Of a stretch of DNA of 64,000 nucleotides, positions 1 through 37,196 are shown piece by piece. The first letter of the stretch is position 1. Each line of letters opens with the position of its first letter. Location of the stretch: assembly GCA_964354975.1 (NCBI GenBank), contig CAYHBS010000002.1, positions 16,088 through 80,087 of the forward strand. Reading direction: 5' to 3'. The position numbers were made by a program, and so were the translations under genes. A model generated the notes under the pieces. The model was not told where the DNA came from. It saw only the letters and a list, made by a program, of their open reading frames with translations, and made no database searches. The DNA comes from an uncultured Candidatus Saccharibacteria bacterium. Lineage in GTDB: Bacteria > Patescibacteriota > Minisyncoccia > Ryanbacterales > HO2-45-13.

Positions 1-1
1 T

Positions 2-250
2 CGACTCGAGATCGATCCGCGCGCCGGACAGCTGTTTGTCTTCTGCAATGCCCGGCACAACCGACTCAAGATCCTTCAGTTCGATTCGTCCGGCGTTTGG
101 GTCGCGGCCAAGCGGCTCGAGAAAGGGACGTTTCGTTGGCCCGAGTCTCGCGATCGCACGATCGTGCTGAGCTACGAAGAGATGGTGATGATCGTGGGCG
201 GACTCGATGCGACGAGCACGCGTCGACGTCGCTGGTATGGTCGTGGATAA
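2..250 (+). pseudogene. tnpB: IS66 family Orf2 (TnpB) 3' fragment, truncated by the window start
   Basis: The translation RLEIDPRAGQLFVFCNARHNRLKILQFDSSGVWVAAKRLEKGTFRWPESRDRTIVLSYEEMVMIVGGLDATSTRRRRW matches the conserved IS66 Orf2 C-terminal region. The stop codon is at 248-250. Confidence 0.6.
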
Positions 251-299
251 CTCGTGCATTGCCGAGCGCGCGCGTATTGACCGAGTACGCGTCGTCCTC

Positions 300-494
300 G
301 GGCTGCGAGTCCTTGCTCTGATGCTCGGCCAGCTCGGCCGCCGCGGCAGCGAGCGCTTCGTCGAGCAGTTTGGCGAAATCCAAGCGCAGCTGCTCGGGGC
401 TCACCTGCTCGGAGCGCCGCCCGTACAGTCGTCGTAGCAGCGCCGAGGGCGGACGCAGAGCGGCCGTGCTGTACTCGCTGGTGGTCAGCTGCAA
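300..494 (-). pseudogene. IS66 transposase N-terminal-like fragment, inverted relative to the other pieces
   Basis: The minus-strand translation ...ALLRRLYGRRSEQVSPEQLRLDFAKLLDEALAAAAAELAE matches the N-terminal motif of IS66 transposases. Downstream similarity is lost. Confidence 0.35.
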
Positions 495-642
495 GCGACT
501 CGGGATCGATCCCTACGCCTACCTGCGCGACGTGATCGCCACGGTGGCAACCTATCCGAACAAGCGCATCGGCGAGCTCACGCCGAGGGCGTGGGCCGCG
601 GCGCGCGAACCTCGGAGCGAGACCCGCGTCGCTTCGGCATAG
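370..642 (+). pseudogene. IS66 family transposase (TnpC) C-terminal fragment
   Basis: The ORF ends with LYSLVVSCKRLGIDPYAYLRDVIATVATYPNKRIGELTPRAWAAA, characteristic of IS66 TnpC C-termini. The upstream about 400 residues of a normal TnpC are missing. Confidence 0.5.
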
Positions 643-783
643 CCGGCCTTACCGGTCTCAAGCCTTATCGGCAGTTGGTCGAACGCTTACGTTCCTCCGG
701 TGTGACCGTGAACAGTGCGGTCTGATCTCGTTGTACTCCCGTCGCCAGCTCTCGATCACGACCTTCGCTTCCTTCTGTGAATC

Positions 784-824
784 GGCTTCCAACTTTGACC
801 CCTTTCGGCGCGCGATTTTGCACG
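784..824. repeat. About 40-bp direct repeat copy 1 (ttccaacTttgacccctttcggcgcgcGatTttg)
   Basis: Near-identical to 2331-2371. The reverse complement contains GGGGTCAAG twice, spaced about 23 bp apart. Confidence 0.6.
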
Positions 825-880
825 GAACCGGACATTTCTACTTTGCGATGACAGCGCTGGGTTGACTCCACTACCCGGCC

Positions 881-1219
881 TTACGGAGGCACGGGCCGGC
901 TGCGCTGCTGCAGCCACTCCAGGAGCGGACCCAGCCCATCGGGTACAGACATCTCGTCGAACTCGAACCGGCGCACGTCCACACCGGTGTGGAGTTCGAG
1001 TTCGTACACGATCTGATCCCTCGCTGAAGAGGACCGCGCGGCAGACACGTCTGATCTCGCGCTGCTTGCAAAGCGCTCGATGGCGAGACGATGTGCGGCG
1101 ACCAGCTCCTCCGCTGCGACATCGCAACCGCGCGAGAGGTTCGCAAAGCCGCCAGACTGCCGGAAATGGATCTGCCGCAGGCTCATATCAAAAACCGACG
1201 GCCTTCCATGCCTTCGCAA
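881..1219 (-). CDS. Hypothetical 112-aa protein co-oriented and overlapping (32 nt) with the M4 protease gene; candidate protease-partner (emfourin-like inhibitor?)
   Basis: ORF directly downstream of the protealysin-like protease on the same strand, with overlapping stop and start. No recognisable catalytic motif. The partner role is inferred from the known bicistronic protealysin-inhibitor arrangement. Confidence 0.35.
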   Translation of the reverse strand: MRRHGRPSVFDMSLRQIHFRQSGGFANLSRGCDVAAEELVAAHRLAIERFASSARSDVSAARSSSARDQIVYELELHTGVDVRRFEFDEMSVPDGLGPLLEWLQQRSRPVPP

Positions 1220-2225
1220 CAGCTTTCTCTTCGGTCGTGCCCATGGCCGCGGCCATCCGCGTGCTCATCGCAACCATCTCGGCGAAATCGCTTTGCTTAT
1301 TCAGCGCCAGCAACGTCTGGTACCAGATTGCTCCGGCCCTGACCCACGCGTTGCCACCGAGCGCCGTCGCCGTGAGGAAGAACGCGTGATTGGGGATGCC
1401 CGAGTTGATGTGCACGCCACCCGAATCTGCAGGGCCTGTGTACTTGTCACACAAGTGCTTCGGTTGAGGGTCGGTCCCTAGATTCGGATCGTTCTCGTAA
1501 GCCTTCCCCTCTTTGAACGTCCGCAGCGACTTGGCCGTCGTGCCCGGACCCATGATGTCGGGGCCGATAAGCCAGTCAGCCTTCGTGGCCGTCTGCTTCC
1601 TTTTCCACTGCTTGACGAGGGTCCCGAAAACGTCAGCAAAATGTTCGTTGAGCGCGCCCGACTCGTCCCGATAGTCCAGGTTCGACGTGTGGCTCACCAC
1701 GCCATGCGTCAGTTCGTGACCCACTACGTCCATCGACCGCGTGAACCGATTGAAAATAACGCCGTCCCCATCGCCATACGCCATCTGCTCGCCGTTCCAG
1801 AACGCGTTGTTGTACTTGTTTCCGAGGTGCACACTTGAGATGAGTGACATTCCGCGGTCATCAAGTGAATTACGGTTGAGCACCTTTTTATAGAAGTCGT
1901 AGGTCGCGCCCGAGTAGTCGTACGCTTCGTTCACGGCGGGATCTGTAGATTTGTTGTCACCCTCGCTGCGCACAAGCTTGCCGGGCAAAAGCGACGAGCC
2001 CTGCTTCTGCATGTCGTAGATCAGCCGATCCTTCTTGGCCCCTGGCGACGGTACCGCGGCCATCATCGCGAACTGCGAAAGCGCGGTGCGCGTTGCGCGC
2101 AACGACGCGGATCGGGCGATGGCCTCGATCGCCAGCTTACGCACTGCCGGGATCGGTGACTCGGCCATCTTGTCTAGTACGTACGGCGGGAGGATGCAGT
2201 GAATAGGCTTGCGTCCGCAGCTCAT
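1188..2225 (-). CDS. M4 (thermolysin-family) zinc metalloprotease, protealysin-like subfamily
   Basis: HEXXH motif (VVGHELTHGV) plus downstream NEHFADVFG glutamate, typical of M4 peptidases. There is no signal peptide, and the short N-terminal propeptide carries the PPL-type motif (CILPPYVLDKM). A strong SD (AAAGGAG) lies 8 nt upstream of the ATG at 2225. Confidence 0.85.
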   Translation of the reverse strand: MSCGRKPIHCILPPYVLDKMAESPIPAVRKLAIEAIARSASLRATRTALSQFAMMAAVPSPGAKKDRLIYDMQKQGSSLLPGKLVRSEGDNKSTDPAVNEAYDYSGATYDFYKKVLNRNSLDDRGMSLISSVHLGNKYNNAFWNGEQMAYGDGDGVIFNRFTRSMDVVGHELTHGVVSHTSNLDYRDESGALNEHFADVFGTLVKQWKRKQTATKADWLIGPDIMGPGTTAKSLRTFKEGKAYENDPNLGTDPQPKHLCDKYTGPADSGGVHINSGIPNHAFFLTATALGGNAWVRAGAIWYQTLLALNKQSDFAEMVAMSTRMAAAMGTTEEKAVAKAWKAVGF

Positions 2226-2330
2226 GCTTATCTCCTTTATGATGTCTTACGCGTGTTCTCCGTCTTCGCTCTGCAGCGATTGGTCATTTTGTATCCGCCC
2301 ACCGAACCTGATGCCATTACGGTGTGGCTC

Positions 2331-2371
2331 AGCTTCCAACCTTGACCCCTTTCGGCGCGCAATCTTGACCC
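2331..2371. repeat. About 40-bp direct repeat copy 2 (ttccaacCttgacccctttcggcgcgcAatCttg), about 100 bp upstream of the protease start
   Basis: Matches 784-824 with 3 mismatches. The two copies bracket the protease/partner gene pair. Confidence 0.6.
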
Positions 2372-2720
2372 CACCCGGTGCTTGAGATCCTCAGTAACCA
2401 CGCTCGGTTGCACGGGCATGGTCGGGGTCACGCTTGGACGCCGATACGGGGTCACACGGCACGCCTCGGGACGCGAGGTAGTGCCGCTCGGCCCCGCGCT
2501 CGACGACTTCTCGCCGGCGCGTGTAGCGCTCTCGGGATCGCTGGATGATCTCGGCGCTGTAAGGCGCTGCAGGGGTAGGGTGGCAGAGAGTCCGGCCACT
2601 GAACGGCGCGGACGTTCGTCCGTTCACGGCAAGCCGGAGATAGATGTCGTGGTGATCGAGCCCGGTCAGATCATCAGTGCACACGCTGATCCTTACAAGA
2701 TTTCACCGCATGCGTTCTCG

Positions 2721-3110
2721 TCAGTCGTACGTAGCCACCGTGGGTGAGAATCCGCGACCGCAAGTGTCGCATTTTTCATGAACGTCGACGTAGCCAGAGG
2801 CATTGCGCTCTGCCAGTTGGGATACAAGCGTCCCCGAGCAGGGTGGCGGACATTTCCGAACCCGCCAGTGATCACCGCACATCGTGCAGAGATACGAAGT
2901 GCCAACTTCGTCTGGGCTCGACTCGATTTCGTGGTTTTCACATGTAGGACAGCACTGAACTACTTTCATCTCTTCCCTCTGTGCCAACGGCTCGCCGAGT
3001 TTGTTGATCGAGGATACCACATGTATCCGCGGAATAGTGGCGGAGCCCACCGGACGACGGCGGGGGACAGATGCCGAGTGGCAACTGAGCGACCGTCGTT
3101 TACCGCTCAA
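2721..3110 (-). CDS. Cys-rich putative zinc-ribbon protein (4 CxxC-type motifs)
   Basis: Contains CCPTC, CTMCG, CPPPC and CDTCG. It overlaps the upstream MBL gene by 11 nt, which suggests operon coupling. Confidence 0.4.
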   Translation of the reverse strand: MSGKRRSLSCHSASVPRRRPVGSATIPRIHVVSSINKLGEPLAQREEMKVVQCCPTCENHEIESSPDEVGTSYLCTMCGDHWRVRKCPPPCSGTLVSQLAERNASGYVDVHEKCDTCGRGFSPTVATYD

Positions 3111-4206
3111 TCACGGCGTCGTAGCGCCCGTCGGTCGTTGCCTGGATGCGCACAGTGCCGTCCCATCCCGTCGCCAGGATCGCTTTCTCTACCTGAACCG
3201 GTGAGAAATCGCGGACGCCGTTTGCGACCAATACGGTTTTCTTCGTCGCCCGCTCGGTAGCGATTGATTGAGTCAACAGGTCAACGGTGACCCGTCGAGG
3301 GTGCCCAAACTGCCACCCTGTGAATTTCTCTTGTGGATGCGAGCGGCCGTATTCCGCGTCCTCCATTGAAATTACGGCGATCGCAGGCGTCATCGCCTCG
3401 AGCAGCTTCCTCGTAGTCCCGTTATACGATCCATGATGCCCGACATGGTAGACGTCGACGTCGAGCGTCGTTGTCCCCCTGTACCAATCGAGCAACGTGC
3501 CGATCGCGTATTCCTCGAGATCGCCCGTGAACAGAAAGGATGACTCCCCGTAGTCGACACGCGTTACGAGGCTATGGTTGTTCTTGTTCGCCCATTCGCC
3601 TTGTGGCCATCCGGGATTGTCATCCATCCGGCCTGACAGAATACGAATCCGCGGGTTCACATCGCCACAATCGATCGGGTCGATGATGTCATCCGTTAGC
3701 CCTGTGCGCGTGGGAAGTCTGGTGATTTCGGAGTCGGCGACCTGGCGCGTCTCGATGTGGAGTGTTTCGGCGTTGTTCCTCACCCAGTTGGGCTCCCCAG
3801 TTCCCGTGCCGGTGCTCTGGCCGGAGTCGATAAAACGTTCCACCGTAAATGATTCGACAATCTCCCGCAGTGCCCGGGTATGGTCGATGTGGTTGTGCGT
3901 GATGATGATGGCGTCGAGCGTGTGGTGAAGTGCGGTGTGAAGAGGATCATCGAAGAAGGCTTGTAAATAGGCCACGAGTGCGTCGGCTTTCTCTTGATCC
4001 CTCGCGCCGGCGTCGATCAACACCGCTCCGCACGGGAACTCGAGGAGCGTGGCATCCGCTTGGCCTACGTCGATGAAATGCGCCACCATCGGCGCCGTTT
4101 CAGCAGCAGCAAAGCGCACTGAAAGCGCGAGAGCGCCGACAGCACAACAAACGCGGTAGGCGAGCCTGCGAGTCACAAAACACTGAACGGGCATAACAAA
4201 CTCCAC
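3100..4206 (-). CDS. Secreted metallo-beta-lactamase-fold hydrolase, ComEC/Rec2-type MBL domain
   Basis: N-terminal signal-peptide-like segment. MBL HxHxDH motif (ITHNHIDHT) and a downstream HVGHHGS motif, typical of ComEC C-terminal-like MBL domains. Confidence 0.7.
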   Translation of the reverse strand: MEFVMPVQCFVTRRLAYRVCCAVGALALSVRFAAAETAPMVAHFIDVGQADATLLEFPCGAVLIDAGARDQEKADALVAYLQAFFDDPLHTALHHTLDAIIITHNHIDHTRALREIVESFTVERFIDSGQSTGTGTGEPNWVRNNAETLHIETRQVADSEITRLPTRTGLTDDIIDPIDCGDVNPRIRILSGRMDDNPGWPQGEWANKNNHSLVTRVDYGESSFLFTGDLEEYAIGTLLDWYRGTTTLDVDVYHVGHHGSYNGTTRKLLEAMTPAIAVISMEDAEYGRSHPQEKFTGWQFGHPRRVTVDLLTQSIATERATKKTVLVANGVRDFSPVQVEKAILATGWDGTVRIQATTDGRYDAVIER

Positions 4207-4390
4207 ATCCCCGAAACGACGACACGGATTGTGCCGTGCCTATCTCGGGCGAAGCAATAGGGGATTCCCCTTACGACGCGGACAGCCCTGGACAGAACGG
4301 CTGAAACCGTCGTATTAAACGGCGGCTCGAGGGGGCAGTCGACGTCGGCACACTTGACGCGACGTACCTACTGCGCACACAAGACAGACA

Positions 4391-5683
4391 ATGTACGACC
4401 TGGGGCTTGCACTGTCGGGTGGCGGCTCTCGTGCCGCCGCCTTCCACGCTGGAACGCTCAGGGCGATAGCCGATCTCCATCTCGTCGAGCGAATCGATGT
4501 TGTCTCGACGGTCTCTGGCGGGTCGTTGTTCGGGGGCGCCTGGCTCGCGGCGCGCGCCAGGGGTGAGTCAGAAGACGCATTCCTGGCAAGCATGAAGACG
4601 GAGCTCGAGAGAGGTTTCATCCTACGTTCGCTTCGCCCCTCGCTGGCGAAAACGTTCCTCCCGTGGCTCGAATACACCCGGACGCACGTGATCGGCGACA
4701 CGTTCGACCGGATTTTCCTTAAAGGCTTGACGCTCTCTGGCTTGCCCGAGCGCCCGGCGCTATGCCTGAACACGTCAATCCTCAACAACGGCCAGGTAGG
4801 GAAGTTCTCGCGTGAGGGATTTTCTGCTTGGGGCCTAAAAGTGCCCGGCGCAACGCCTGAGCATGTCGTCCCGTGGCACAACTTCCCGGTCGCGTACGCA
4901 GTGGCTGCCTCTGCGGCATTCCCGGTTGGACTACCGCCGCTTCGGCTGGGCCACGGACGATTTCCGTCCGGTACACGCTTCACGGAGGGACTTGCGGGTT
5001 CGAAACACCTTTTCCTAACCGATGGCGGCGTGCTGGAGAATCTAGGGATTCAGACGCTCCTGCGATCCGGCCGGTTCGCGGCTTGGGATCTTATCGTCAG
5101 TGACGCTGGCACAGCAGATACACGGTGGAGTCTCGTGCCAGGATGGTCGACAGTAAAGGGCCTAGGTATCTGGATTGCGAGTGGGCGGATCTTGGACCGA
5201 CTCATGATCGTGATGAACAACAAACAGAATCGGTGGGCTCGTCAGGAGGTGATCGACCAACTTGAATCCTCGTGGTTCGCAGCGGCTCTCCGTGACGGCC
5301 TAAAGACACCTGCCATCGATACTCTGCTGCGCACTCATCCCGTCCGGGCTCGGAGAAAGCTCATCTTCGCTCGCGTGAATCAGACCCGAAAATCTTTTGT
5401 CACTGGCATACCGAGACATCGGCTCGCAGAACTCGCCGATGGCAACGAGCGTGACGTCCCTGGGTCAGATGACTACGGGGGGTTATGTGACTTTCTACGC
5501 GCCGCGGGAGTGCATCTGGAGCAGGCGGACACATACTACGGTCAACTCGGCGATGACACGCAGGCGCTCGCAATGAATGAGGTGAAGACAAACTTCACCG
5601 CGTTACCAACGCAAGTCGTTGAACAACTGTCAAACCACGCTGCGTGGCAGGTGCACGCATGCGCGGCTGTGTACGGTGGATGA
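4391..5683 (+). CDS. Patatin-like phospholipase
   Basis: Oxyanion hole GGGSRAAAFHAG, nucleophile elbow G-x-S-x-G (TVSGGS) and catalytic Asp in the DGG motif (LTDGGVLENLG). Confidence 0.8.
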   Translation: MYDLGLALSGGGSRAAAFHAGTLRAIADLHLVERIDVVSTVSGGSLFGGAWLAARARGESEDAFLASMKTELERGFILRSLRPSLAKTFLPWLEYTRTHVIGDTFDRIFLKGLTLSGLPERPALCLNTSILNNGQVGKFSREGFSAWGLKVPGATPEHVVPWHNFPVAYAVAASAAFPVGLPPLRLGHGRFPSGTRFTEGLAGSKHLFLTDGGVLENLGIQTLLRSGRFAAWDLIVSDAGTADTRWSLVPGWSTVKGLGIWIASGRILDRLMIVMNNKQNRWARQEVIDQLESSWFAAALRDGLKTPAIDTLLRTHPVRARRKLIFARVNQTRKSFVTGIPRHRLAELADGNERDVPGSDDYGGLCDFLRAAGVHLEQADTYYGQLGDDTQALAMNEVKTNFTALPTQVVEQLSNHAAWQVHACAAVYGG

Positions 5684-5720
5684 GCAAAGAGGCTCACATC
5701 GATAGGTCGGGTGCCAAGGT

Positions 5721-6365
5721 ATGAAAATTGAAGAGATCGGGCCGTGGATACTGTTGTTTGTAGGCGCGCTGTTACTGCTGGGCGGTGCTTCTCTTGCCGC
5801 CCGAAAGCGTGGCAGTGTCCCAATGATCACCATCCTACTGATCTTTGGCCTCGGAACTGCGGGCATTGGCGTGTATGGCCCAACCTTTTTGGATCGATAC
5901 CAGCTGCTCAAAACGGTGGGGCCGTTGATTGGTTCACCGAGCCACGAGAGCTACAATGCGTTCCTCTCCGGTGTAGCGAGGGGGGACGTCGGACCGCTCG
6001 AGCGAGAACTTGGCCTGTCCTACATCTTGCAGCGGCCGATCGACGGGACAGAAGAGCTACTTCAGGCAGCGACGGCAAAGGCGGAACAAGATGACGCCCG
6101 AGTCGCTCTCAGCGCCGCAGGACAATGGCTCGAGGGGCGCCAGCGGGTAGCGGCTGTCTTGGCGGCCGATCTGATGCCGTCCAACCATACCGCGCGTCTT
6201 AGCGAGGAACAAGTCAAATTATTTGACCCGGCAACCCGCACCTTGATTATTCGCGATCTCGAGAAGCACGACGGGCGGCGACTCGCGACTGACCCGGGCG
6301 TCGTTGCACGGCTGAAGCACACAACACCTGATTTTCTGGAGCCAGGTCCAGTCATAGATCGGTGA
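5721..6365 (+). CDS. Membrane protein (two N-terminal TM helices), hypothetical
   Basis: Hydrophobic N-terminus (WILLFVGALLLLGGASLAA, ITILLIFGLGTAGIGVY). High-GC codon usage like the upstream genes. Confidence 0.4.
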   Translation: MKIEEIGPWILLFVGALLLLGGASLAARKRGSVPMITILLIFGLGTAGIGVYGPTFLDRYQLLKTVGPLIGSPSHESYNAFLSGVARGDVGPLERELGLSYILQRPIDGTEELLQAATAKAEQDDARVALSAAGQWLEGRQRVAAVLAADLMPSNHTARLSEEQVKLFDPATRTLIIRDLEKHDGRRLATDPGVVARLKHTTPDFLEPGPVIDR

Positions 6366-6535
6366 GCATACGGCGTTTCTGTGCGCCATTTTTTTTCGCC
6401 AATGACTCACAGCACATTGAGAAAGCCTCCGGAAAATCCGGGGCGATTCAAGAAAGCGTCAAGGATCATCTACGGTTGCCTCGCACGCCAACATCTCCAT
6501 CCTTCACGCTTCCTTCGCTCTTTCTATACTGGAGC

Positions 6536-8089: not shown

Positions 8090-8608
8090 TTGAGAAGGAG
8101 GTGCCGTATGGCACGCCAAAACGTAGAGTTCGCTATTGTCCAAGGACCCTCGAAGCTCGATCTGATGCTCTCTCTGTTCGACACTAACATGGGGGTGCGG
8201 ACGGTGAGTTTTCTGACGGCCAAGGGTGAAAACCAACCGGGTTTCTCCTACAACGTCCATATCATCTCCGTGAGGAGAGGACATCCCAGCGCAAAGATCT
8301 GGGAAATCGAGGGGCTCACAGAAACCCAAAACGGGAAGAAGAGGGTCTTGATCTACTACCTCTCGGACACGCGCGAAGGTCACATGAGAATCGAAGAGAA
8401 TCTTCGGACCAAAGGAATCATTGAAACGCCCAACAACTCTCGGAAAGCGGGTGCTCTCCTCGAAATCATCTTCAGGATGATTAACAGGTATCGGGAAAGT
8501 CATTCCGGCAACCTGGACGAAGAGATCTTCAATTTTTTCGAGAAGGCGAAGCGAGTTTACTACGCCAAGGACCGCTATTTCCTCACCAGGGCGATCAAGA
8601 ATATCTGA
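8090..8608 (+). CDS. Hypothetical protein (172 aa)
   Basis: Strong SD (GAAGGAGGTG) 6 nt upstream of the ATG. A terminator hairpin follows. No recognisable motifs. Confidence 0.5.
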   Translation: MRRRCRMARQNVEFAIVQGPSKLDLMLSLFDTNMGVRTVSFLTAKGENQPGFSYNVHIISVRRGHPSAKIWEIEGLTETQNGKKRVLIYYLSDTREGHMRIEENLRTKGIIETPNNSRKAGALLEIIFRMINRYRESHSGNLDEEIFNFFEKAKRVYYAKDRYFLTRAIKNI

Positions 8609-8626
8609 GGTCAAGAACCTCAACCA

Positions 8627-8670
8627 GGGCCCCTCGTGGAAGAAATTCCGCGTGGGGCTCTCACTTTTTA
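8627..8670 (+). terminator. Rho-independent terminator after the 8090-8608 gene
   Basis: GC-rich imperfect hairpin (GGGCCCCTCGTGG...CCGCGTGGGGCTC) followed by CTTTTTATATTT. Confidence 0.5.
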
Positions 8671-9253
8671 TATTTGTAATTTGTTGATATAATTCCATAA
8701 AGAATTTAAGAATTTGCCGCCAAAGCAGTAAATTCAACATCAATCTTCATCATTGAATCCGACAATTTGGATCTTTTGACTTTCTTGCTCATTCGACGCC
8801 TCCAAATCCCTGCCTCAATATATTAAAGAGAATTACTGCCGCAACTACAGACTCACGCTACACATAAGACAATATATCATTGGAATTTTATAAAAAGAGA
8901 ACCGTTTCACGTGCAACACCACAAATGATTACCCATAATCACTCGTACATATCAAGACTCTCTTAGATTTAGTATGTCGCACAAATAATATGTGAAACAC
9001 TCAAAACTATTACAATATTGATATTATAGACAATGTCGCTAAAGAAGATCCGAAGTTACGCCTAATACCAACAGTCAGTAGGCGGAAATAATAAGGAGGT
9101 TATGGTTTCACGTGAAATACACAGCTACTGTGGATAACTTGTGTGTTAAAATATAAAGGCCAGTGTCCCTGACCTTAAATGTCTTGTAGGATAAGGACAT
9201 ATGGCCTTGACCCTTGTGTGTATGAACCGTGGATAACTATTGATATTATGAGC

Positions 9254-9790
9254 CTTCAAAAGGACGTTGGTGAGGTAGGAGAGGATATTGTCCGATTGTT
9301 TCTCATGAAACAAGGGCATTCTATCGTCGCAAAAAACGCTCTTGGATATGGCTTTGAAATTGATATTGTTTCACGATATCATGGTTGCTTCTATTTTATC
9401 GAGGTAAAAAGTGTTTCCCATGAAACATATAGTCCCGGCTATTACGCCAGCGACAGATCGCGCTTACTTGTATGGCTTGGCAATGTTGCCAGAGGAGGAT
9501 GGAGAATACTTTCCGAGGGGAAAAAGAGTCGAAAGATTTTATTCTGGAATATCAATGAGACTGGGGAATCTTCTTCTGAAACGCAGATCGAGGAGTGGAA
9601 TAATTTGCTCGCTGGCGCGGCTGACCGAGTGAATTCGCTGAAATTGTTACATGTGAAACGAGGGATTGAGATTCTGACTCATAAGGGTCTCGTCCCGGAT
9701 GATGCCGAGCTGTCTTTTGAGGTGATAACGGTCATGCTCGATTTCTTTAGAAAAACCGCTATAATACAGCGCATTCCTTGTGAACTCTGA
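9254..9790 (+). CDS. YraN/UPF0102-family (PD-(D/E)xK) endonuclease-like protein with about 80-aa C-terminal extension
   Basis: MSLQKDVGEVGEDIVRLFLMKQGHSIVAKNALGYGFEIDIVSRYHGCFYFIEVKS matches the YraN family pattern (GE..A..YL...G..IL.RN.R...GEIDL.A.....L.FVEVK). The upstream in-frame extension to 9179 is probably not translated. Confidence 0.55.
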   Translation, partial: LQKDVGEVGEDIVRLFLMKQGHSIVAKNALGYGFEIDIVSRYHGCFYFIEVKSVSHETYSPGYYASDRSRLLVWLGNVARGGWRILSEGKKSRKILFWNINETGESSSETQIEEWNNLLAGAADRVNSLKLLHVKRGIEILTHKGLVPDDAELSFEVITVMLDFFRKTAIIQRIPCEL

Positions 9791-9852
9791 TGTTTCATGT
9801 GAAACGCGGAGGCTCTGATATTGGAGCTTTTAGCTGATAGGGGAAATACCAG

Positions 9853-10036
9853 CTTACTGTGACTCTCGGGCTGTCGGCCGTACTTCTATGAGATAAATTA
9901 AGGAAGTCGGCACCACCCGTATTGAGAATATCATCACCTTACGGTGATTATCGGGCTGTCGGCCGCACTTCTAAGAGATAAGCTATTGAAGTCGGCACCA
10001 CTTGTATTGAAAGTATCGTCACCTCGCGGTGACTAA
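9853..10036 (+). repeat. Tandem repeat of about 85 bp (two full units plus a third that continues into tRNA-Pro); each unit begins with a copy of the tRNA-Pro 5' leader and first 10 nt (cgggctgtcg) and ends in a GGTGA/TCACC hairpin
   Basis: Unit A 9853-9937 and unit B 9938-10022 are about 85% identical over their full length. The third unit (10023-) diverges into the authentic tRNA at 10037. Confidence 0.7.
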
Positions 10037-10107
10037 CGGGCTGTCGTATACCGGTAGTACGCATGTTTTGGGAACATGTAGACTGGGTTCAATTCCCAGC
10101 AGCCCGA
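10037..10107 (+). tRNA. tRNA-Pro (anticodon TGG), CCA not encoded
   Basis: Manual fold: acceptor CGGGCTG/CAGCCCG, D-arm GTAT-ACCGGTA-GTAC, anticodon stem CATGT/ACATG with loop TTTGGGA (U33, anticodon UGG, G37), T-arm CTGGG-TTCAATT-CCCAG, discriminator A followed by CCG. Confidence 0.8.
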
Positions 10108-10109
10108 CC

Positions 10110-10234
10110 GGTTTTTGGAGGGAAGCAGGAGGCAAACTGCTTTGCCTCTGTTGGGAATTGAAGGGCGAGCGATGTGCGAAGCACCGCAAAGCCCCGGCCG
10201 AGCTGATGGAGCGAGGAAGACCAGCAGCCCGACC
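10110..10234 (+). ncRNA. tRNA-linked structured element copy 1 (hairpin GAGGCAAAG/CTTTGCCTC, hairpin GTGCgaaGCAC, then a duplicate of the tRNA-Pro 3' end CCAGCAGCCCGACC)
   Basis: About 75% identical to the element after the second tRNA-Pro. The first hairpin shows compensatory changes between copies (GAGGCAAA/TTTGCCTC versus CAGGTAAA/TTTACCTG). Confidence 0.4.
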
Positions 10235-10269
10235 AGTAATCGTGAAGAAAGAATGCCTATTTTAATGTG

Positions 10270-10340
10270 CGGGACGTCGTATACCGGTAGTACATACGAT
10301 TCGGGTTCGTATAGACTGGGTTCGATTCCCAGCGTCCCGA
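10270..10340 (+). tRNA. tRNA-Pro (anticodon CGG), CCA not encoded
   Basis: Acceptor CGGGACG/CGTCCCG, same D-arm as the first tRNA-Pro, anticodon stem TACGA/TCGTA with loop TTCGGGT (anticodon CGG), T-arm CTGGG-TTCGATT-CCCAG, discriminator A. Confidence 0.8.
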
Positions 10341-10342
10341 CT

Positions 10343-10480
10343 GAACGAAGTGAAGGAGGTGCAGCAGGTAAACTACTTTACCTGCGTTGGGAATCGAAGG
10401 GCGAGCGATGTGCGTAGCACCGCATAGCCCCGGCCGAGCAGATAAAGCGAGGGATTCCCAGCCTGCCCACTTTGTGGGCG
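10343..10480 (+). ncRNA. tRNA-linked structured element copy 2 (hairpin CAGGTAAAG/CTTTACCTG, hairpin GTGCgtaGCAC, terminal hairpin GCCCACtttGTGGGC)
   Basis: Paralogous to 10110-10234 with covarying stem positions. Confidence 0.4.
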
Positions 10481-11087: not shown

Positions 11088-12551
11088 CTATTTCACTTTG
11101 TGGCGTTTTTTTATTTTTTCGACTTCAGAACCCTCAACTTCTGCGGATGTTGATTTTGCTTCTTCTGATTTTTTCTTCAGCGCTACGTCATCCAGTTTGT
11201 TCAATGTTATTGCGAGATCCATGAGATATTCTTTCGTATTGTTCTTTGGCTCGTCGAGCACCGCGCCAAGAAGTGCATTCAATATATAACCAATGCGCGG
11301 GCTAGGGGAGAGTGAGAGCTCTTTCATAAGATCATTTCCAGTGACCTTGAGCATTTTCACGGATATTGGATCGCGCTGGAGTTGTTCCACCATGAAACGA
11401 AAATGACGCAATTTATATGGCTCTGCCTTTGGTACGCCCGAACCGATGCGGTCGCACATACGCACGCGAATGAGATCTTCCATATCTTCCACTCCCACTT
11501 GCGCAATGAGGCGTCGTACTGACGCGGGCGTCACTTCATCAACGTTGTAGTAGAACAAATGAAAGCGCACCAGCTTGGTGACTTTTTCTACCACCGACTT
11601 TGAATATTTCATACGCTCAAGTAGTGGACGCGCCATTTGCGCACCCACAATGTCGTGATTATAGAACGTGGAATATGTTCCATCGCCTTTTTTGGTGCGT
11701 GGTTTTGCAACGTCGTGAAGCAGTGCGCCGAGACGTACTTCAAGTGACCACCCTTGCTCCGCCGCGTATTTGAGCGCACGTACGTTGTGCTCCCACACCG
11801 TGTAGATGTGATGCAAATTTTGACCAACACCAATGCCCTCACAGAGTTCTGGCATGATGTATTGCATTAAGTCGAGCGTTTCGAGTTGTTGCACACCCAC
11901 TTCGGGATGCTCGGACATAATGATGCGGTCAAATTCCGCGCGAATCCGCTCCATCGCAATATCTTTGAGGAGTGCGGAATATTTATGCACGGCATTTGCG
12001 GTTTCGGACGCTATGGCAAAATCCAGTTGTGTAGCAAAGCGTACTGCACGCATAAGGCGAAGCGCGTCTTCGGAAAGTCGTGCAGCAGGATCTCCCACGG
12101 TTTTTACAATCTTCTTTGCCAAATCTTTCTCTCCACCAAATGGATCGACAATTTCAAAATCATTTTTTACGCGACACATTGCCATTGCATTGATGGTGAA
12201 ATCGCGACGTGCTAAATCTTTCTCAAGCGAATCGACAAATTCCACAGCGTCGGGGCGGCGGCGATCAGCATATCCCTGTTCGGTTCGGTACGGAGTCACT
12301 TCAATGATTGCGAGTGTTTCATCTTCACTTCCCGTTTTTATGCCGACCGTGCCGAAATTATTTTCGTAGACGTGGTCGGGGAATAACTTTTGAATATCTT
12401 CTGGTTTTGCGTTTGTCGTTACGTCCCAATCAGCGGGGGCGCGGCCAAGGAGTAAATCGCGAACACATCCACCAACAATGTATGCATCAAAACCACCTTC
12501 CTCAAGTATGTTGAGGACGCGCGTTACTTCAATTGGAATGGAGTATTTCAT
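11088..12551 (-). CDS. cca: CCA-adding tRNA nucleotidyltransferase (class II, PolyA_pol head plus HD domain)
   Basis: N-terminal GGCVRDLLLGR...DWDVTT nucleotidyltransferase motif. RDFTINAMA motif. HD domain in the C-terminal half. 487 aa. Confidence 0.85.
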   Translation of the reverse strand: MKYSIPIEVTRVLNILEEGGFDAYIVGGCVRDLLLGRAPADWDVTTNAKPEDIQKLFPDHVYENNFGTVGIKTGSEDETLAIIEVTPYRTEQGYADRRRPDAVEFVDSLEKDLARRDFTINAMAMCRVKNDFEIVDPFGGEKDLAKKIVKTVGDPAARLSEDALRLMRAVRFATQLDFAIASETANAVHKYSALLKDIAMERIRAEFDRIIMSEHPEVGVQQLETLDLMQYIMPELCEGIGVGQNLHHIYTVWEHNVRALKYAAEQGWSLEVRLGALLHDVAKPRTKKGDGTYSTFYNHDIVGAQMARPLLERMKYSKSVVEKVTKLVRFHLFYYNVDEVTPASVRRLIAQVGVEDMEDLIRVRMCDRIGSGVPKAEPYKLRHFRFMVEQLQRDPISVKMLKVTGNDLMKELSLSPSPRIGYILNALLGAVLDEPKNNTKEYLMDLAITLNKLDDVALKKKSEEAKSTSAEVEGSEVEKIKKRHKVK

Positions 12552-12826
12552 ATGTTGCGTATTTGTAATGCACCGCGCAGCATTTGCTTTAATGCATTCT
12601 TACCACGTGTGGTCTTAAAATATCCTTCACGTCACTTCGCATCATCTATGACGCTGTGTGCTTCATAATATATTAAAACAAACGGACGACGTGACTTGGT
12701 AGACTTTGACCCGCCATTCTTGTGCTCTTTCATTCTTCTCCGCAAATCCGATGAGTAACCGATATATAGCTTATTGTCCAAGAGACTTTTTAGGACATAG
12801 GTATAGTACATTCTCCTATTGTACAT
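12548..12826 (-). pseudogene. GIY-YIG nuclease-domain gene interrupted by an in-frame TGA (codon at 12630-12632) at a conserved Arg position
   Basis: The N-terminal 64 aa (YTYVLKSLLDNKLYIGYSSDLRRRMKEHKNG...RRPFVLIYYEAH) is classic GIY-YIG. After the TGA, the same frame continues as REGYFKTTRGKNALKQMLRGALQIRNI, matching the family C-terminus (KRREKYFKTTKGKKAL..ML). Its terminal TGA overlaps the cca ATG (ATGA coupling). Confidence 0.6.
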
Positions 12827-21431: not shown

Positions 21432-22970
21432 ATGGCTCAATGCATTCATAGCGTACAAACAATAGGCATTGTCGCACATCCCGTGGATGTTGAGGTTGAT
21501 CTTGCACCGGGACTTTTTCGATTTACTATTGTCGGTCTTCCCGATAAGGCAGTGGAGGAATCTCGAGATCGCGTAGGAGCCGCCATTGCACATAGCAAGC
21601 TCACTCCTCCGCACAAAAAACATGCGCGTGTCACCATTAACTTAGCTCCTGCGGACATCAAAAAAGAAGGGCCGATGTTTGACGTGCCTATTGCGCTCGC
21701 ATTTTTACTTGCCGGAAAACAAATTCGCTTTGATCCTGCGCGGAGATGGTTTGTGGGAGAGCTGGCACTCGACGGATCGGTGCGTGCGGGGAAAGGTATT
21801 ATTATTCTTGCGAGCGCCGCAAAGCGCGCAGGAATCACCGAACTCTACGTCCCCACCACGAATTGCGTGGAAGCGGCGATGGTTCCAGGAATTTCCGTGA
21901 TTGGTTTTTCAACGCTCGGTGAACTGATAGATCACCTTGAGGGACGCCACATCATCCCCGCAACTCCCAGTGGCACATTTCATTCCGTCACCCCTGCAAC
22001 GGTTGTAGATTTTGCGGATATCAAAGGGCAGGTGTCTGCCAGGCGCGCCGCAGAAATTGCCGCAGCGGGAAGACATCATCTCGCCCTTTCAGGACCTCCG
22101 GGCACTGGGAAAACAATGATTGCTCGTGCAATCCCAGGCATTATGCCGCCCATGACATTTGATGAAGCACTTGAAGTGACTGCAATTCATAGCGTATCGG
22201 GCACCGCGCGCGAGGATATTCGTAGCTACGGCGTCATACGCTCACGTCCATTCCGCAGTCCACATCACACAACATCCCACGCTGCGCTTGTTGGGGGAGG
22301 AACGGTGCCAAAACCGGGAGAGCTTACGCTCGCCCATCACGGTATTTTATTTCTCGACGAATTCCCAGAATTCAGTACCGCCTCCATCGAGGCGCTTCGT
22401 GAACCACTCGAAGAGCGTATGGTGACTGTTGCGCGCGTAAAAGCAACAAATACATTCCCCGCACATATTTTGCTGGTCGCAGCTATGAATCTCTGCCCGT
22501 GCGGGAGGCGAGGGGCTCACGAAGTATGCACGTGCTCACCGAGAGATCTGATGCGCTACCAACGGAAAGTGTCGGGACCCATAGTGGACCGCATTGATCT
22601 CTGGGCAAACGTTCCGCGTGTGGACGCCGCAAGCGCTACCGCGCTCCCCGCAGGGGACTCGTCGGAGCGCATGAAAGAACGTGTCGCGCGCGCTGCGCTC
22701 ATGCAGCGTGATCGATACGCGCATACTCCATATCTCTGGAACAGTGAGCTCCCCGCCGCAAAATTTGATATGTTTCTTGCACTGAGCGACGTGGCGTCTC
22801 GTACGCTCGCTACCGCGGCGTCGCAACTACACATGTCACTTCGCGCATTTCATCGTGTGAAAAAAATATCGAGAACCATTGCGGATCTCGATGCGTCGCC
22901 CTCAATTGAAAATGCACACATTCTCGAAGCGCTCCAGTTTCGCCCTCGCGTACAAGAAATACATCACTAG
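21432..22970 (+). CDS. comM: YifB/ComM-family Mg-chelatase-like AAA+ ATPase
   Basis: N-terminal Lon-protease-like ChlI domain (VDVEVDLAPGLFRFTIVGLPDKAVEESRDRV), Walker A LSGPPGTGKTM, and C-terminal Mg_chelatase_C. Confidence 0.85.
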   Translation: MAQCIHSVQTIGIVAHPVDVEVDLAPGLFRFTIVGLPDKAVEESRDRVGAAIAHSKLTPPHKKHARVTINLAPADIKKEGPMFDVPIALAFLLAGKQIRFDPARRWFVGELALDGSVRAGKGIIILASAAKRAGITELYVPTTNCVEAAMVPGISVIGFSTLGELIDHLEGRHIIPATPSGTFHSVTPATVVDFADIKGQVSARRAAEIAAAGRHHLALSGPPGTGKTMIARAIPGIMPPMTFDEALEVTAIHSVSGTAREDIRSYGVIRSRPFRSPHHTTSHAALVGGGTVPKPGELTLAHHGILFLDEFPEFSTASIEALREPLEERMVTVARVKATNTFPAHILLVAAMNLCPCGRRGAHEVCTCSPRDLMRYQRKVSGPIVDRIDLWANVPRVDAASATALPAGDSSERMKERVARAALMQRDRYAHTPYLWNSELPAAKFDMFLALSDVASRTLATAASQLHMSLRAFHRVKKISRTIADLDASPSIENAHILEALQFRPRVQEIHH

Positions 22971-29232: not shown

Positions 29233-29235
29233 AAT

Positions 29236-32877: not shown

Positions 32878-32878
32878 T

Positions 32879-33304: not shown

Positions 33305-33305
33305 T

Positions 33306-33947: not shown

Positions 33948-33948
33948 T

Positions 33949-36742: not shown

Positions 36743-36743
36743 C

Positions 36744-37190: not shown

Positions 37191-37196
37191 ACCTAT

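What the first reader, a model, noticed from the sequence alone, without database searches (positions are those of the whole stretch)
8700..9810. YraN-like nuclease gene flanked by perfect palindromes GTTTCACGTGAAAC / GTTTCATGTGAAAC, plus DnaA-box-like 9-mers in a 640-bp AT-rich spacer
A 640-bp non-coding AT-rich region (8610-9250) carries a perfect 12-bp palindrome TTTCACGTGAAA (9106-9117) and half-sites at 8904-8913, 8991-9000 and 9651-9660. A second near-perfect palindrome GTTTCATGTGAAAC sits exactly at the gene stop (9792-9805). The spacer also has TGTGGATAA (a perfect DnaA-box reverse complement, 9127-9135) and CGTGGATAA (9228-9236). There is a strong SD followed by an 11-codon mini-ORF (atggtttcacgtgaaatacacagctactgtggataa) that itself contains the palindrome and the DnaA box. 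The pattern suggests a regulator-bound leader or attenuator, or a small mobile cassette carrying the nuclease gene.
Basis: seen in the sequence. Interest (0 to 1): 0.5.

Follow-up and report, generated by a model that had tools for sequence, protein, structure and literature searches.

The report
Chromosome partition sites inside nuclease gene
The palindromes are a dense cluster of parS-type chromosome-partition sites, with two conserved DnaA boxes beside them, built into and around a small nuclease gene about 32 kb from dnaA; dozens of related ultra-small groundwater bacteria keep the same layout, and I found no published description of it.

Summary
The motifs are real and far beyond chance. 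All six matches in the 64-kb window to the bacterial centromere consensus parS (TGTTTCACGTGAAACA, 3 or fewer mismatches) lie in 8903-9806. Two lie upstream of the YraN-family gene (9248-9790), three lie inside it in two different reading frames, and one starts right after its stop codon. Relatives whose synonymous sites are saturated keep the sites at the same offsets. In 56 more distant yraN loci the site density is 3-4 per kb around the gene, against 1 hit in 128 kb further away. The unconstrained centre is a pyrimidine-purine step in 93% of sites, so the local consensus is TGTTTCA-YR-TGAAACA. The two DnaA-box 9-mers are also conserved, and DnaA boxes are about 11-fold enriched upstream of yraN across these loci. 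dnaA and dnaN lie 31 kb away, and GC skew places the origin there. The best reading is an origin-proximal ParB loading array (centromere) with adjacent DnaA sites, as at the Caulobacter centromere. ParB binding is inferred, because this genome's parB was not located. The mini-ORF/attenuator and mobile-cassette ideas are not supported. Two nearly invariant blocks (9125-9245 and 9725-9777) remain unexplained.

The parts
8903..8918 (.). parS-like site 1, CGTTTCACGTGCAACA (2 mismatches to TGTTTCACGTGAAACA), 345 nt upstream of yraN
   Evidence: Orthologues carry one or two sites at -351/-335 and -315/-298.
8973..9000 (.). Conserved block ATGTCGCACAAATAATATGTGAAACA, ending in a perfect parS half-site GTGAAACA (8992-8999)
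   Evidence: half-site. Invariant columns in the three-lineage alignment. Also present in L013.
9104..9119 (.). parS-like site 2, GGTTTCACGTGAAATA (contains the perfect 12-bp palindrome 9106-9117), at -144
   Evidence: GTTTCACGTGAAA is invariant at the same offset in L002, L006 and L013.
9129..9137 (-). DnaA box 1, a perfect TTATCCACA (TGTGGATAA on the + strand)
   Evidence: Invariant in four lineages. It occupies the position of the TGTGGATAA that opens the conserved upstream module in distant loci.
9125..9245 (.). Nearly invariant non-coding block b1, function unresolved. It contains DnaA box 1, TTGTGTG, an AT-rich run with TATAAA (9152-9157), hairpin arms GGCCAGTGTCC (9158-9168) and GGACATATGGCC (9195-9206), TTGACC, TTGTGTG and DnaA box 2.
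   Evidence: Alignments. nhmmer finds it only in the close clade. Neutral sites in these lineages are saturated. No Rfam match. Fold z-scores are -1.8 (+ strand) and -2.5 (- strand).
9228..9236 (-). DnaA box 2, TTATCCACG (one mismatch), 20 nt before the start codon
   Evidence: GTGGATAAC is invariant in four lineages.
9248..9790 (+). YraN/UPF0102-family PD-(D/E)xK nuclease gene (180 aa) that hosts the array
   Evidence: Pfam PF02021, E = 4e-8, 33.9 bits against a cut-off of 23.6. NCBI names the 99%-identical protein 'YraN family protein'. The D...E-x-K residues are invariant. The start is taken as 9248 because the upstream ATG (9179) frame has a stop in L013 (read directly from the sequence).
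9297..9312 (.). parS-like site 3, TGTTTCTCATGAAACA, inside the CDS (codons LFLMKQ), offset +49
   Evidence: Identical 16-mer at +49 in L002 and L006, and one change in L013.
9367..9374 (.). Perfect parS half-site TGTTTCAC inside the CDS (codons IVSR)
   Evidence: All four codons are nucleotide-identical in four lineages.
9412..9427 (.). parS-like site 4, TGTTTCCCATGAAACA, inside the CDS (codons VSHET, a different frame from site 3), offset +164
   Evidence: The same offset is occupied in most distant loci, although that offset was part of the retrieval pattern.
9645..9660 (.). parS-like site 5, TGTTACATGTGAAACG, inside the CDS, offset +397
   Evidence: Same offset in L006 and L013, and +391 in L002 (TGTTTCATATGAAACA).
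9725..9777 (.). Block b2: the last ~53 nt of the CDS (codons ITVMLDFFRKTAIIQRI), nucleotide-invariant, containing CGCTATAATACAGCG. It may be an internal promoter for tRNA-Pro; this is unresolved.
   Evidence: 17 of 18 codons are identical in four lineages. Synonymous-site constraint tested. nhmmer finds it only in the close clade.
9791..9806 (.). parS-like site 6, TGTTTCATGTGAAACG, starting on the base after the stop codon
   Evidence: TGTTTCATATGAAACA lies at stop+1 in L002, L006 and L013.

Best explanation
The palindromes are parS sites, the 16-bp centromere-like sequences on which the partition protein ParB (Spo0J) loads. Six full sites and two half-sites spread over 0.9 kb, in and around yraN, would form the origin-proximal partition complex of this Patescibacteria chromosome, about 32 kb from dnaA-dnaN.

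Inferred mechanism, from what is established for ParABS systems: CTP-bound ParB dimers close as clamps at each site and slide or spread over the neighbourhood. The resulting complex is moved by ParA and can recruit SMC.

The two conserved DnaA boxes next to the array are most likely real DnaA-binding sites. They either link initiation to segregation, as described for the Caulobacter centromere, or regulate a promoter in block b1.

The yraN reading frame is the long-term host of the array. Several of its conserved peptide motifs (LFLMKQ, VS[HY]ET) are simply translations of parS.

Shown here: motif identity, clustering, nucleotide-level conservation and the origin-proximal position. Inferred: binding by ParB and DnaA, and the function.
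For: 1. Motif identity. Every match in the window to TGTTTCACGTGAAACA with 3 or fewer mismatches lies in 8903-9806. With only the arms scored there are 6 hits against 0.23 expected.

2. Positional conservation. L002, L006 and L013 keep sites at about -345/-335, -300, -144, +49, +164, +397 and stop+1. Their neighbouring CCA gene has dS of 0.9-1.5, so neutral sites are saturated.

3. The constraint is on DNA, not protein. The in-gene sites use two different reading frames. Among codons with an invariant amino acid, 27 of 32 inside the elements are nucleotide-identical, against 10 of 34 outside (p = 7e-6).

4. Breadth. In 56-58 non-redundant distant yraN loci (GC 31-51%) the density is 3.3 sites per kb in -500..0 and 4.2 per kb in 0..+600, against 1 hit in 128 kb beyond 1.5 kb on either side. 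With the two offsets used for retrieval excluded, 52 of 56 loci still have at least one site. Perfect canonical parS occurs in L035 and L057. In L075 (20 kb) and L076 (16 kb) the sites occur only around yraN.

5. The unconstrained centre dinucleotide is YR in 230 of 247 sites, and CG, the canonical parS centre, is the commonest in non-coding sites.

6. Position. dnaA (40171-41550) and dnaN (41731-42843) are in the window. The dnaA-dnaN spacer looks like an unwinding region, and GC skew changes there.

7. ParA and ParB exist in the phylum. In a cultivated Saccharibacterium they were scored essential at two of three Tn-seq time points (supplement of PMC10633639). The closest named relative of the window, L013, is labelled Saccharibacteria.

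8. DnaA boxes. Both are invariant in four lineages. Boxes reach 3.6 per kb in the 500 nt upstream of yraN against about 0.3 per kb elsewhere, and 41 of 46 loci have at least one. DnaA boxes at a parS centromere have a precedent in Caulobacter (PMC6399470).
Against: - No parB or parA was found in the window, in about 25 kb of flanking contigs, or in any of the 74 loci fetched at that point. The cognate ParB of this genome is therefore unseen.
- None of the six window sites is a perfect parS; each has 2-3 mismatches, mostly at the centre and the outermost bases. Whether ParB tolerates TA, CA or TG centres was not tested.
- The distant loci were retrieved with peptide patterns that are themselves translations of two of the sites, so prevalence among all Patescibacteria yraN genes is unknown. 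Two or three loci have no sites or only one.
- The rest of the genome could not be scanned for other parS sites.
Confidence: 0.7

Rival explanations
1. The sites are operators of a dedicated dimeric transcription factor (not ParB) that controls yraN and the downstream tRNA-Pro genes.
For: A 16-bp palindrome is typical of helix-turn-helix dimers, and sites lie upstream of the start codon. YraN is a competence and recombination nuclease (bioRxiv 10.1101/2024.02.06.579203), so regulated expression is plausible.
Against: - There are six to seven sites spread over 0.9 kb, including three inside the CDS and one after the stop codon, at conserved offsets. This is not an operator layout.
- The consensus equals parS, and perfect canonical copies occur in relatives.
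- No regulator gene is conserved next to yraN.
- LexA of Patescibacteria is cited among LexA proteins that evolved recognition of a direct-repeat motif rather than a palindrome (PMC7739468).
Confidence: 0.1
2. The region upstream of yraN is the replication origin, or one half of it, or a DnaA-titrating box cluster of the datA/DBC type. On this view the DnaA boxes are the primary feature and parS is simply placed at the origin.
For: - The best DnaA-box density in the window is at 8700-9500.
- The boxes are conserved and about 11-fold enriched upstream of yraN in distant loci, usually as TGTGGATAA-N11-nGTGGATAA.
- In distant loci the CCA gene and yraN diverge from this spacer, and genes on either side tend to point away from it.
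Against: - The window has only two boxes here.
- No AT-rich unwinding element or DnaA-trio run was recognised next to them.
- The dnaA-dnaN spacer, 32 kb away, is 30% GC and has box-like motifs and a trio-like run.
- The replication component of GC skew is about -0.01 from 9.8 to 40 kb and +0.047 to the right of dnaA.
- The skew comparison across distant loci is confounded by shared gene content.
Confidence: 0.12
3. The DnaA-box-like 9-mers are just the -35 and -10 regions of a conserved promoter (TGGATA, 15-16 nt, [T/G]ATAAA), not DnaA sites.
For: In distant loci TGTGGATAA-N11-nGTG[G/T]ATAAAGGACA can be read as TGGATA, 16 nt, TATAAA. In the window it can be read as TGGATA (9131-9136), 15 nt, TATAAA (9152-9157) (read directly from the sequence). 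The ATAAAGGACA motif is the most enriched 8-10-mer upstream of yraN.
Against: - A full 9-of-9 DnaA consensus recurs in many lineages, which is more than a -35 hexamer requires.
- Box 2 of the window (9228-9236) is not in such a pair.
- The promoter scan did not call this site.
- The two readings are compatible, since DnaA-regulated promoters do overlap boxes.
Confidence: 0.25
4. A small mobile cassette or MITE carries the nuclease gene, with the palindromes as its terminal inverted repeats.
For: Palindromic motifs sit on both sides of the gene. tRNA fragments are repeated nearby, and a compositionally foreign island begins about 2.5 kb upstream.
Against: - The locus is syntenic in all relatives found.
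- The same motif occurs four more times between the 'ends'.
- No target-site duplication was seen and there is no second copy in the window.
Confidence: 0.01
5. The leader is a transcription attenuator or structured leader RNA with a regulatory mini-ORF.
For: There is a GGAGG followed by an 11-codon ORF (9102-9137) and a conserved hairpin (9158-9206).
Against: - The mini-ORF's ATG is absent in L002, L006 and L013.
- The Shine-Dalgarno to ATG spacing is 2 nt.
- No U-tract follows the hairpin on the + strand.
- Fold z-scores are modest, there is no Rfam match, and no covariation is available.
Confidence: 0.03

Closest known systems
Chromosomal parS/ParB (Spo0J) centromere sites, consensus TGTTNCACGTGAAACA (B. 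subtilis, Caulobacter, Pseudomonas and others; background in PMC8494293, PMC5961200 and my own knowledge)
   Same: A 16-bp palindrome with the same arms. The sites are origin-proximal, rare elsewhere, and often lie inside coding sequence (my own knowledge: a B. subtilis site lies inside spo0J). Half-sites are also present, as described for P. aeruginosa (PMC10419367).
   Different: - The density is much higher: 6 full and 2 half-sites in 0.9 kb, rather than a few sites over 10-200 kb.
- The centre is degenerate to YR (TA, CA or TG as well as CG).
- The host gene is yraN, not parB, and no parAB genes lie nearby.
- The offsets are conserved across many lineages.
- ParB binding was not tested.
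Caulobacter crescentus centromere with DnaA boxes (Mera et al. 2014, as summarised in PMC6399470)
   Same: DnaA boxes sit directly beside parS, so the initiator and the partition protein share one locus a few kb to tens of kb from the origin.
   Different: Here there is only sequence evidence. The boxes form a conserved pair or module fused to a third motif (ATAAAGGACA) in relatives. The distance to dnaA is 31 kb.
Vibrio cholerae chromosome II rctA/parS2 locus (PMC6399470)
   Same: A small ORF serves as a platform that carries a centromere site and binding sites for the replication initiator.
   Different: yraN keeps its catalytic residues and has dN/dS of 0.34-0.46, below 1, so it probably still encodes a protein. 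The initiator here would be DnaA, not RctB.
Plasmid centromere arrays (F sopC, P1 parS; my own knowledge)
   Same: Many ParB sites are packed into less than 1 kb.
   Different: The motif is the chromosomal type, not a plasmid type. The locus is chromosomal and syntenic, and the sites are irregularly spaced (115-233 bp) rather than tandem.
oriC-proximal DnaA-box clusters of B. subtilis and E. coli datA (my own knowledge)
   Same: Conserved DnaA boxes lie outside oriC but near it.
   Different: There are only two boxes in the window, they are coupled to parS, and no titration function was tested.
YraN/UPF0102 nuclease, the partner of the ComM helicase in resolving transformation D-loops (bioRxiv 10.1101/2024.02.06.579203)
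   Same: The gene is a member by Pfam and by its catalytic motif. ComM is present in the window at 21432-22970.
   Different: This clade carries an insertion of about 45 aa and evolves roughly 8 times faster than its neighbours. No link between YraN and parS is reported in the searchable literature.

Membership tests
Chromosomal parS (ParB-binding centromere site) | A 16-bp inverted repeat matching TGTTNCACGTGAAACA | tested here: met
   Six sites have 2-3 mismatches each, and the arms consensus is TGTTTCA..TGAAACA. Related loci carry perfect canonical copies. The pooled frequency matrix equals parS with a YR centre.
Chromosomal parS (ParB-binding centromere site) | Located in the origin-proximal part of the chromosome | tested here: met
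   dnaA and dnaN lie 31-32 kb away in the same window, and the skew shift is at the dnaA region.
Chromosomal parS (ParB-binding centromere site) | Rare or absent elsewhere in the genome | tested here: inconclusive
   There are none elsewhere in the 64-kb window or in about 25 kb of extra contigs, and only 1 hit in 128 kb of distant-locus flanks. The whole genome is not available.
Chromosomal parS (ParB-binding centromere site) | The genome encodes a ParB (N-terminal CTPase domain plus HTH) | not testable with these tools
   None was found in the window or in any of the 74 loci fetched at that point. ParA and ParB are present in a cultivated Saccharibacterium and were scored essential at two of three Tn-seq time points.
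Chromosomal parS (ParB-binding centromere site) | ParB binds and spreads from the site | not testable with these tools
   This needs ChIP-seq or in vitro binding.
Chromosomal parS (ParB-binding centromere site) | Sites conserved at the DNA level in orthologous loci | tested here: met
   The offsets are the same in L002, L006 and L013, and synonymous sites inside the elements are constrained.
oriC (chromosomal replication origin) | A cluster of several DnaA boxes | tested here: inconclusive
   The window has two good boxes and distant loci have two to three. This is the highest local density in the window, but only marginally.
oriC (chromosomal replication origin) | An adjacent AT-rich unwinding element or DnaA-trios | tested here: not met
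   None was recognised beside the boxes. A trio-like AT-rich run is present in the dnaA-dnaN spacer instead.
oriC (chromosomal replication origin) | A GC-skew sign change at the site | tested here: not met
   There is no positive replication component between 9.8 and 40 kb; the shift is near 43 kb. The evidence is weak because the window is short.
Leader-peptide attenuator | A conserved upstream ORF coupled to alternative terminator and antiterminator hairpins | tested here: not met
   The ATG of the mini-ORF is absent in three orthologous lineages, and no terminator follows the hairpin on the + strand.
MITE or mobile cassette | Terminal inverted repeats with a target-site duplication, and presence/absence or multiple copies | tested here: not met
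   It is a single copy in conserved synteny in all relatives, and the motif also occurs internally.
YraN / UPF0102 nuclease | A Pfam PF02021 match above the curated cut-off, and the PD-(D/E)xK catalytic residues | tested here: met
   33.9 bits against a cut-off of 23.6. E37, D39, E52 and K54 are invariant in the family alignment.
Centromere with initiator-binding sites (Caulobacter type) | DnaA boxes within the parS region that are bound by DnaA | tested here: inconclusive
   The boxes lie 10 nt from site 2 and 20 nt before the start codon, and they are conserved. Binding was not tested.

The most novel reading that the evidence does not exclude
In a large part of the Patescibacteria the chromosome's centromere is one composite module anchored in the yraN gene. 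It consists of a DnaA-box pair, a third conserved motif (ATAAAGGACA) and 3-10 parS sites. The array is old enough that conserved YraN peptide motifs (VS[HY]ET, LFLMKQ) are translations of parS. The module couples DnaA to ParB loading, or is itself part of the origin, and it may place the transformation nuclease YraN under cell-cycle control.
Probability: 0.35. Interest if true: 0.75.

Novelty: new variant of a known kind. Interest (0 to 1): 0.6.

Why it matters
Nothing is known experimentally about how the ultra-small, mostly uncultivated Patescibacteria organise and segregate their chromosomes.

If this reading is right, the work provides four things:
- a predicted centromere with a lineage-specific parS consensus (TGTTTCA-YR-TGAAACA);
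- a marker for the origin-proximal region that can be recognised in fragmentary metagenome assemblies;
- a predicted third case, after Caulobacter and Vibrio chromosome II, in which initiator-binding sites and centromere sites share one compact locus;
- a clear case of a cis-element array shaping a protein's sequence.

It can be tested directly in the Saccharibacteria that can now be manipulated genetically.

Tried and rejected
- **Leader peptide.** The mini-ORF at 9102-9137 is not conserved.
- **Longer YraN starting at 9179.** That frame has a stop in L013, so the start is 9248.
- **Known RNA families.** Rfam found nothing in 8600-10120 apart from the tRNA, even at E up to 10, and nothing in the L075 upstream region.
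- **b1 as a structured RNA.** Fold z-scores are only -1.8 and -2.5, and there are too few substitutions to test covariation.
- **Mobile cassette.** Rejected on synteny.
- **Search for ParB or ParA next to the array.**
  - Pfam scans of nearly all large ORFs in the window found none.
  - Contig extensions on both sides found none.
- **LexA as the binder.** A paper cites Patescibacteria LexA among proteins that evolved recognition of a direct-repeat motif. The primary paper is not held.
- **oriC at yraN.**
  - GC skew and the absence of an unwinding element argue against it in this window.
  - Pooled skew in distant loci was uninformative because the flanks share homologous genes.
- **Taxonomy of distant loci.** Cluster look-ups gave only 'Patescibacteria group' and 'Candidatus Kaiserbacteria' names, so 'Patescibacteria' is an inference for most of the 56 loci.
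- **Tool failures.** The genome-collection search with the seven-protein alignment failed for lack of a conserved stretch. The three-protein alignment found one locus.
- **Literature.** Searches for parS or ParB in Patescibacteria, or parS with YraN, found nothing relevant.
Full report
**1. What is in the sequence**

- TTTCACGTGAAA at 9106-9117 is a perfect 12-bp palindrome, inside GGTTTCACGTGAAATA.
- GTTTCATGTGAAAC at 9792-9805 starts on the base after the TGA stop of the gene.
- TGTGGATAA, a perfect DnaA box on the minus strand, is at 9129-9137. This is 2 nt from the stated position.
- CGTGGATAA is at 9228-9236.
- The mini-ORF is at 9102-9137.
- The spacer 8609-9247 is 37% GC, against 48% for the window.

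GTTTCNNNNGAAAC with up to one mismatch occurs 7 times in 64 kb, and six of those lie at 8904, 9105, 9298, 9413, 9646 and 9792. Three of the six are inside the coding sequence.

**2. What the motif is**

GTTTCACGTGAAAC is the core of parS, the 16-bp centromere-like site bound by chromosomal ParB/Spo0J (consensus TGTTNCACGTGAAACA; established knowledge, with background in PMC8494293 and PMC5961200, seen).
- All six matches in the window to TGTTTCACGTGAAACA with 3 or fewer mismatches lie in 8903-9806. There are also two perfect half-sites, at 8992 and 9367.
- With only the 14 arm positions scored (up to 2 mismatches) there are six hits, all in this 0.9 kb. Mononucleotide shuffles of 57.6 kb give 0.23.

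**3. Context**

The window is a bacterial chromosome around its origin.
- dnaA is at 40171-41550, dnaN at 41731-42843, yidC at 38777-39556 and a Jag-like gene at 38371-38838.
- The gene inside the array (9248-9790) is a YraN/UPF0102 PD-(D/E)xK nuclease. Pfam gives 33.9 bits against a cut-off of 23.6, and the catalytic D...E-x-K residues are conserved.
- YraN has recently been described as the nuclease partner of the ComM helicase in resolving transformation D-loops (bioRxiv 10.1101/2024.02.06.579203). ComM is present at 21432-22970.
- The exact protein occurs in Hainich groundwater 0.1-µm metagenomes. A 99%-identical protein is encoded in NCBI MAG GCA_038065875.1, labelled 'Patescibacteria group bacterium'.
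- The closest species-level relative in the genome collection is labelled Candidatus Saccharibacteria (L013).

**4. Orthologous loci**

Three related lineages (L002, L006, L013) carry the same array at the same offsets from the yraN start. The offsets are about -351/-335, -315/-298, -144, +49, +164, +391/+397 and stop+1. In these lineages the site is often the perfect palindrome TGTTTCATATGAAACA.

These genomes are not near-identical.
- The neighbouring CCA-adding enzyme is 88-93% identical in protein, but its dS is 0.9-1.5, so neutral sites are saturated.
- YraN itself is only 45-59% identical between the window, L002 and L013/L006 (74% between L013 and L006), and its dN/dS is 0.34-0.46 in those comparisons (0.16 between L013 and L006), against 0.04-0.05 for CCA.

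The in-gene sites use two different reading frames: +49 encodes LFLMKQ and +164 encodes VSHET. Of the 40 codons that overlap the sites, the half-site and block b2, 29 are nucleotide-identical in all four lineages, against 11 of 140 elsewhere. Among codons with an invariant amino acid the figures are 27 of 32 inside and 10 of 34 outside (p = 7e-6). The constraint is therefore on the DNA.

**5. Wider distribution**

A metagenome scan returned 61 more distant yraN loci, 56-58 of them non-redundant, with GC of 31-51%. One caveat applies: the two peptide patterns used for retrieval are translations of the sites at +49 and +164.

- Arm-only matches reach 3.3 per kb in -500..0 and 4.2 per kb in 0..+600. 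There is 1 hit in the 128 kb lying more than 1.5 kb away.
- With the two selected offsets excluded, 52 of 56 loci still have at least one site and 41 have at least two. Of 46 loci with enough upstream sequence, 37 have an upstream site.
- Perfect canonical parS occurs in L035 and L057.
- The centre dinucleotide was left free in the search. It is YR in 230 of 247 sites (TA 92, CG 66, CA 54, TG 18), and CG is the commonest centre in non-coding sites.
- Two loci fetched by homology with 10-kb flanks (L075, 20 kb, and L076, 16 kb) show sites only around yraN. L076 encodes P0108, which NCBI names a Candidatus Kaiserbacteria protein.

The family is large: 4734 proteins have E of 1e-5 or better among the 8000 candidates scored.

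**6. The DnaA boxes**

Window-wide, boxes with up to one mismatch are at chance level (12 found, 12.6 expected). The two boxes in the spacer are nevertheless invariant in four lineages.

In the distant loci, boxes reach 3.6 per kb in the 500 nt upstream of yraN, against about 0.3 per kb elsewhere, and 41 of 46 loci have at least one. They typically appear as TGTGGATAA-N11-nGTGGATAA fused to AGGACA.

K-mer enrichment in 44 upstream regions gives three motif families:
- ATAAAGGACA, in 28 of 44 regions (0.6 expected);
- GTTTCACGTGAAAC, in 25-28 of 44;
- GTGGATAA, in 25 of 44.

The window's TGTGGATAAC...ATAAAGGCCA (9129-9162) is the local version of this module.

**7. Is this the origin?**

Probably not in this genome.
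- The dnaA-dnaN spacer is 30% GC and carries TCATCCACA, TTATCC..CCACACA and a TAATAATAGTAATAA run.
- GC skew was split by gene orientation. The replication component is about -0.01 between yraN and dnaA and +0.047 to the right of dnaA.
- No unwinding element was recognised beside the yraN boxes.

The evidence is weak because the window is short, and the distant loci could not be tested. Their pooled skew is confounded by shared genes. I keep this as a rival at about 0.12.

DnaA boxes at a parS centromere have a precedent in Caulobacter, and the V. cholerae rctA/parS2 locus is an ORF that serves as a platform for ParB2 and the initiator RctB (PMC6399470).

**8. ParB**

No parB or parA was found in any of these places:
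- the window (Pfam scans of nearly all large ORFs);
- the contig extensions;

ParA and ParB (PF02195 plus PF17762) do exist in the cultivated Saccharibacterium Southlakia epibionticum, where they were scored essential at two of three Tn-seq time points (supplement of PMC10633639). In that organism the YraN domain is fused to RNase HII, so the arrangement there may differ. Binding of ParB to this array remains an inference from motif identity.

**9. Mechanism proposed**

- Shown: an origin-proximal array of parS-consensus sites, clustered and conserved at the nucleotide level, with conserved DnaA boxes beside it.
- Inferred from established ParABS biology: CTP-bound ParB loads at the six sites and slides or spreads over yraN and its flanks. 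The complex is segregated by ParA and can recruit SMC.
- Inferred, weaker: DnaA binds the two boxes. It either links initiation to segregation or regulates a promoter in b1. The module can also be read as -35 TGGATA and -10 TATAAA.

The yraN ORF has hosted the array for long enough that its motifs VS[HY]ET and LFLMKQ are translations of parS.

**10. Rejected or unresolved**

- The mini-ORF lacks an ATG in the orthologues.
- The ORF extension from 9179 is interrupted by a stop in L013.
- The mobile-cassette idea fails on synteny.
- LexA is unlikely as the binder. A paper cites Patescibacteria LexA among proteins that evolved recognition of a direct-repeat motif (PMC7739468).

Two blocks are unexplained.
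- b1 (9125-9245) is nearly invariant, contains a hairpin, has no Rfam match and has fold z-scores of -1.8 and -2.5.
- b2 (9725-9777) has 17 of 18 codons identical and contains TATAAT about 270 nt before tRNA-Pro.
- Both occur only in the close clade.

**11. Novelty**

parS arrays and DnaA boxes at centromeres are known kinds. Four things seem to be new:
- the density of the array;
- the YR-degenerate centre;
- the embedding in yraN at conserved codon positions;
- the conserved DnaA-box / ATAAAGGACA / parS module across many ultra-small lineages.

Searches of the held literature for parS or ParB in Patescibacteria, and for parS together with YraN, found nothing relevant. I rate it a new variant of a known kind, with interest 0.6.

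Noticed in passing
window 1-6400 (and L010, L005): The first ~6.4 kb is about 60% GC, against 45-50% for the rest. It carries an M4 peptidase, an MBL hydrolase and a patatin-like lipase. IS66 fragments lie just beyond the window's left end. The 99%-identical sister assembly has ComEC at this position instead. This is either a strain-variable island or an assembly join.
   Followed up: partly
window 9850-10046: Two 85-nt tandem repeats, plus the start of a third, run into tRNA-Pro(tgg) at 10037-10109. Each unit has a small hairpin with a compensatory change (ATCACC/GGTGAT versus GTCACC/GGTGAC) followed by the first 10 nt of the tRNA. L006 has one such unit.
   Followed up: partly
window 10088-10162, 10221-10237, 10321-10398: Downstream of each tRNA-Pro gene is a 14-15-nt stretch complementary to the tRNA's 3' half. 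A third copy of the tRNA 3' end lies at 10221-10237. In L075 three extra copies of the tRNA-Gly 3' end lie between tRNA-Gly and yraN. These may be integration scars or processing or termination elements.
   Followed up: no
window 41551-41730: The dnaA-dnaN spacer is 30% GC. It has TCATCCACA, TTATCC..CCACACA and the run TAATAATAGTAATAA, which resembles DnaA-trios next to an AT-rich stretch. It is the likely unwinding region of oriC.
   Followed up: partly
window 9248-9790 versus 11088-12551: In this clade YraN evolves about 8 times faster than its neighbours (dN/dS of 0.34-0.46 against 0.04-0.05). It also carries an insertion of about 45 aa relative to the 130-150-aa YraN of other Patescibacteria.
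   Followed up: partly
L075 5722-6150 (also L076, about 3.4 kb upstream of yraN): A second motif cluster lies 4.2 kb upstream of yraN, on the far side of the CCA gene. It has a 40-bp perfect palindrome containing TGTCCTTTATAAAGGACA, then tandem DnaA-box-like 9-mers TTTTCCACAgTTATGCACA flanked by GGACAG/CTGTCC, then about 350 nt of unannotated sequence ending in a terminator. There is no Rfam match.
   Followed up: partly
L014-L074, 350 nt upstream of yraN: The motif ATAAAGGACA (variant ATAAAAGACA) occurs in 28 of 44 upstream regions (0.6 expected). It is often fused to the second DnaA box and sometimes appears as the palindrome GTCCTTTATAAAGGAC (L066, L035). The binder is unknown; it could also be a -10 element plus transcription start site.
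   Followed up: partly
window 32879-37190: A type IV secretion-like gene set (PrgI family, VirB4/TraG-like ATPase, T4SS pilin) lies within a run of ORFs without Pfam matches at 27008-38357.
   Followed up: no
window about 8711-8797 (minus strand): A 28-codon ORF (MSKKVKRSKLSDSMMKIDVEFTALAANS) with a GGAGG Shine-Dalgarno sequence sits in the part of the spacer that does not align with L002.
   Followed up: no
window 12632-12826 (minus strand): A short 64-aa GIY-YIG-domain ORF lies between the CCA-adding enzyme gene and tRNA-Lys.
   Followed up: no
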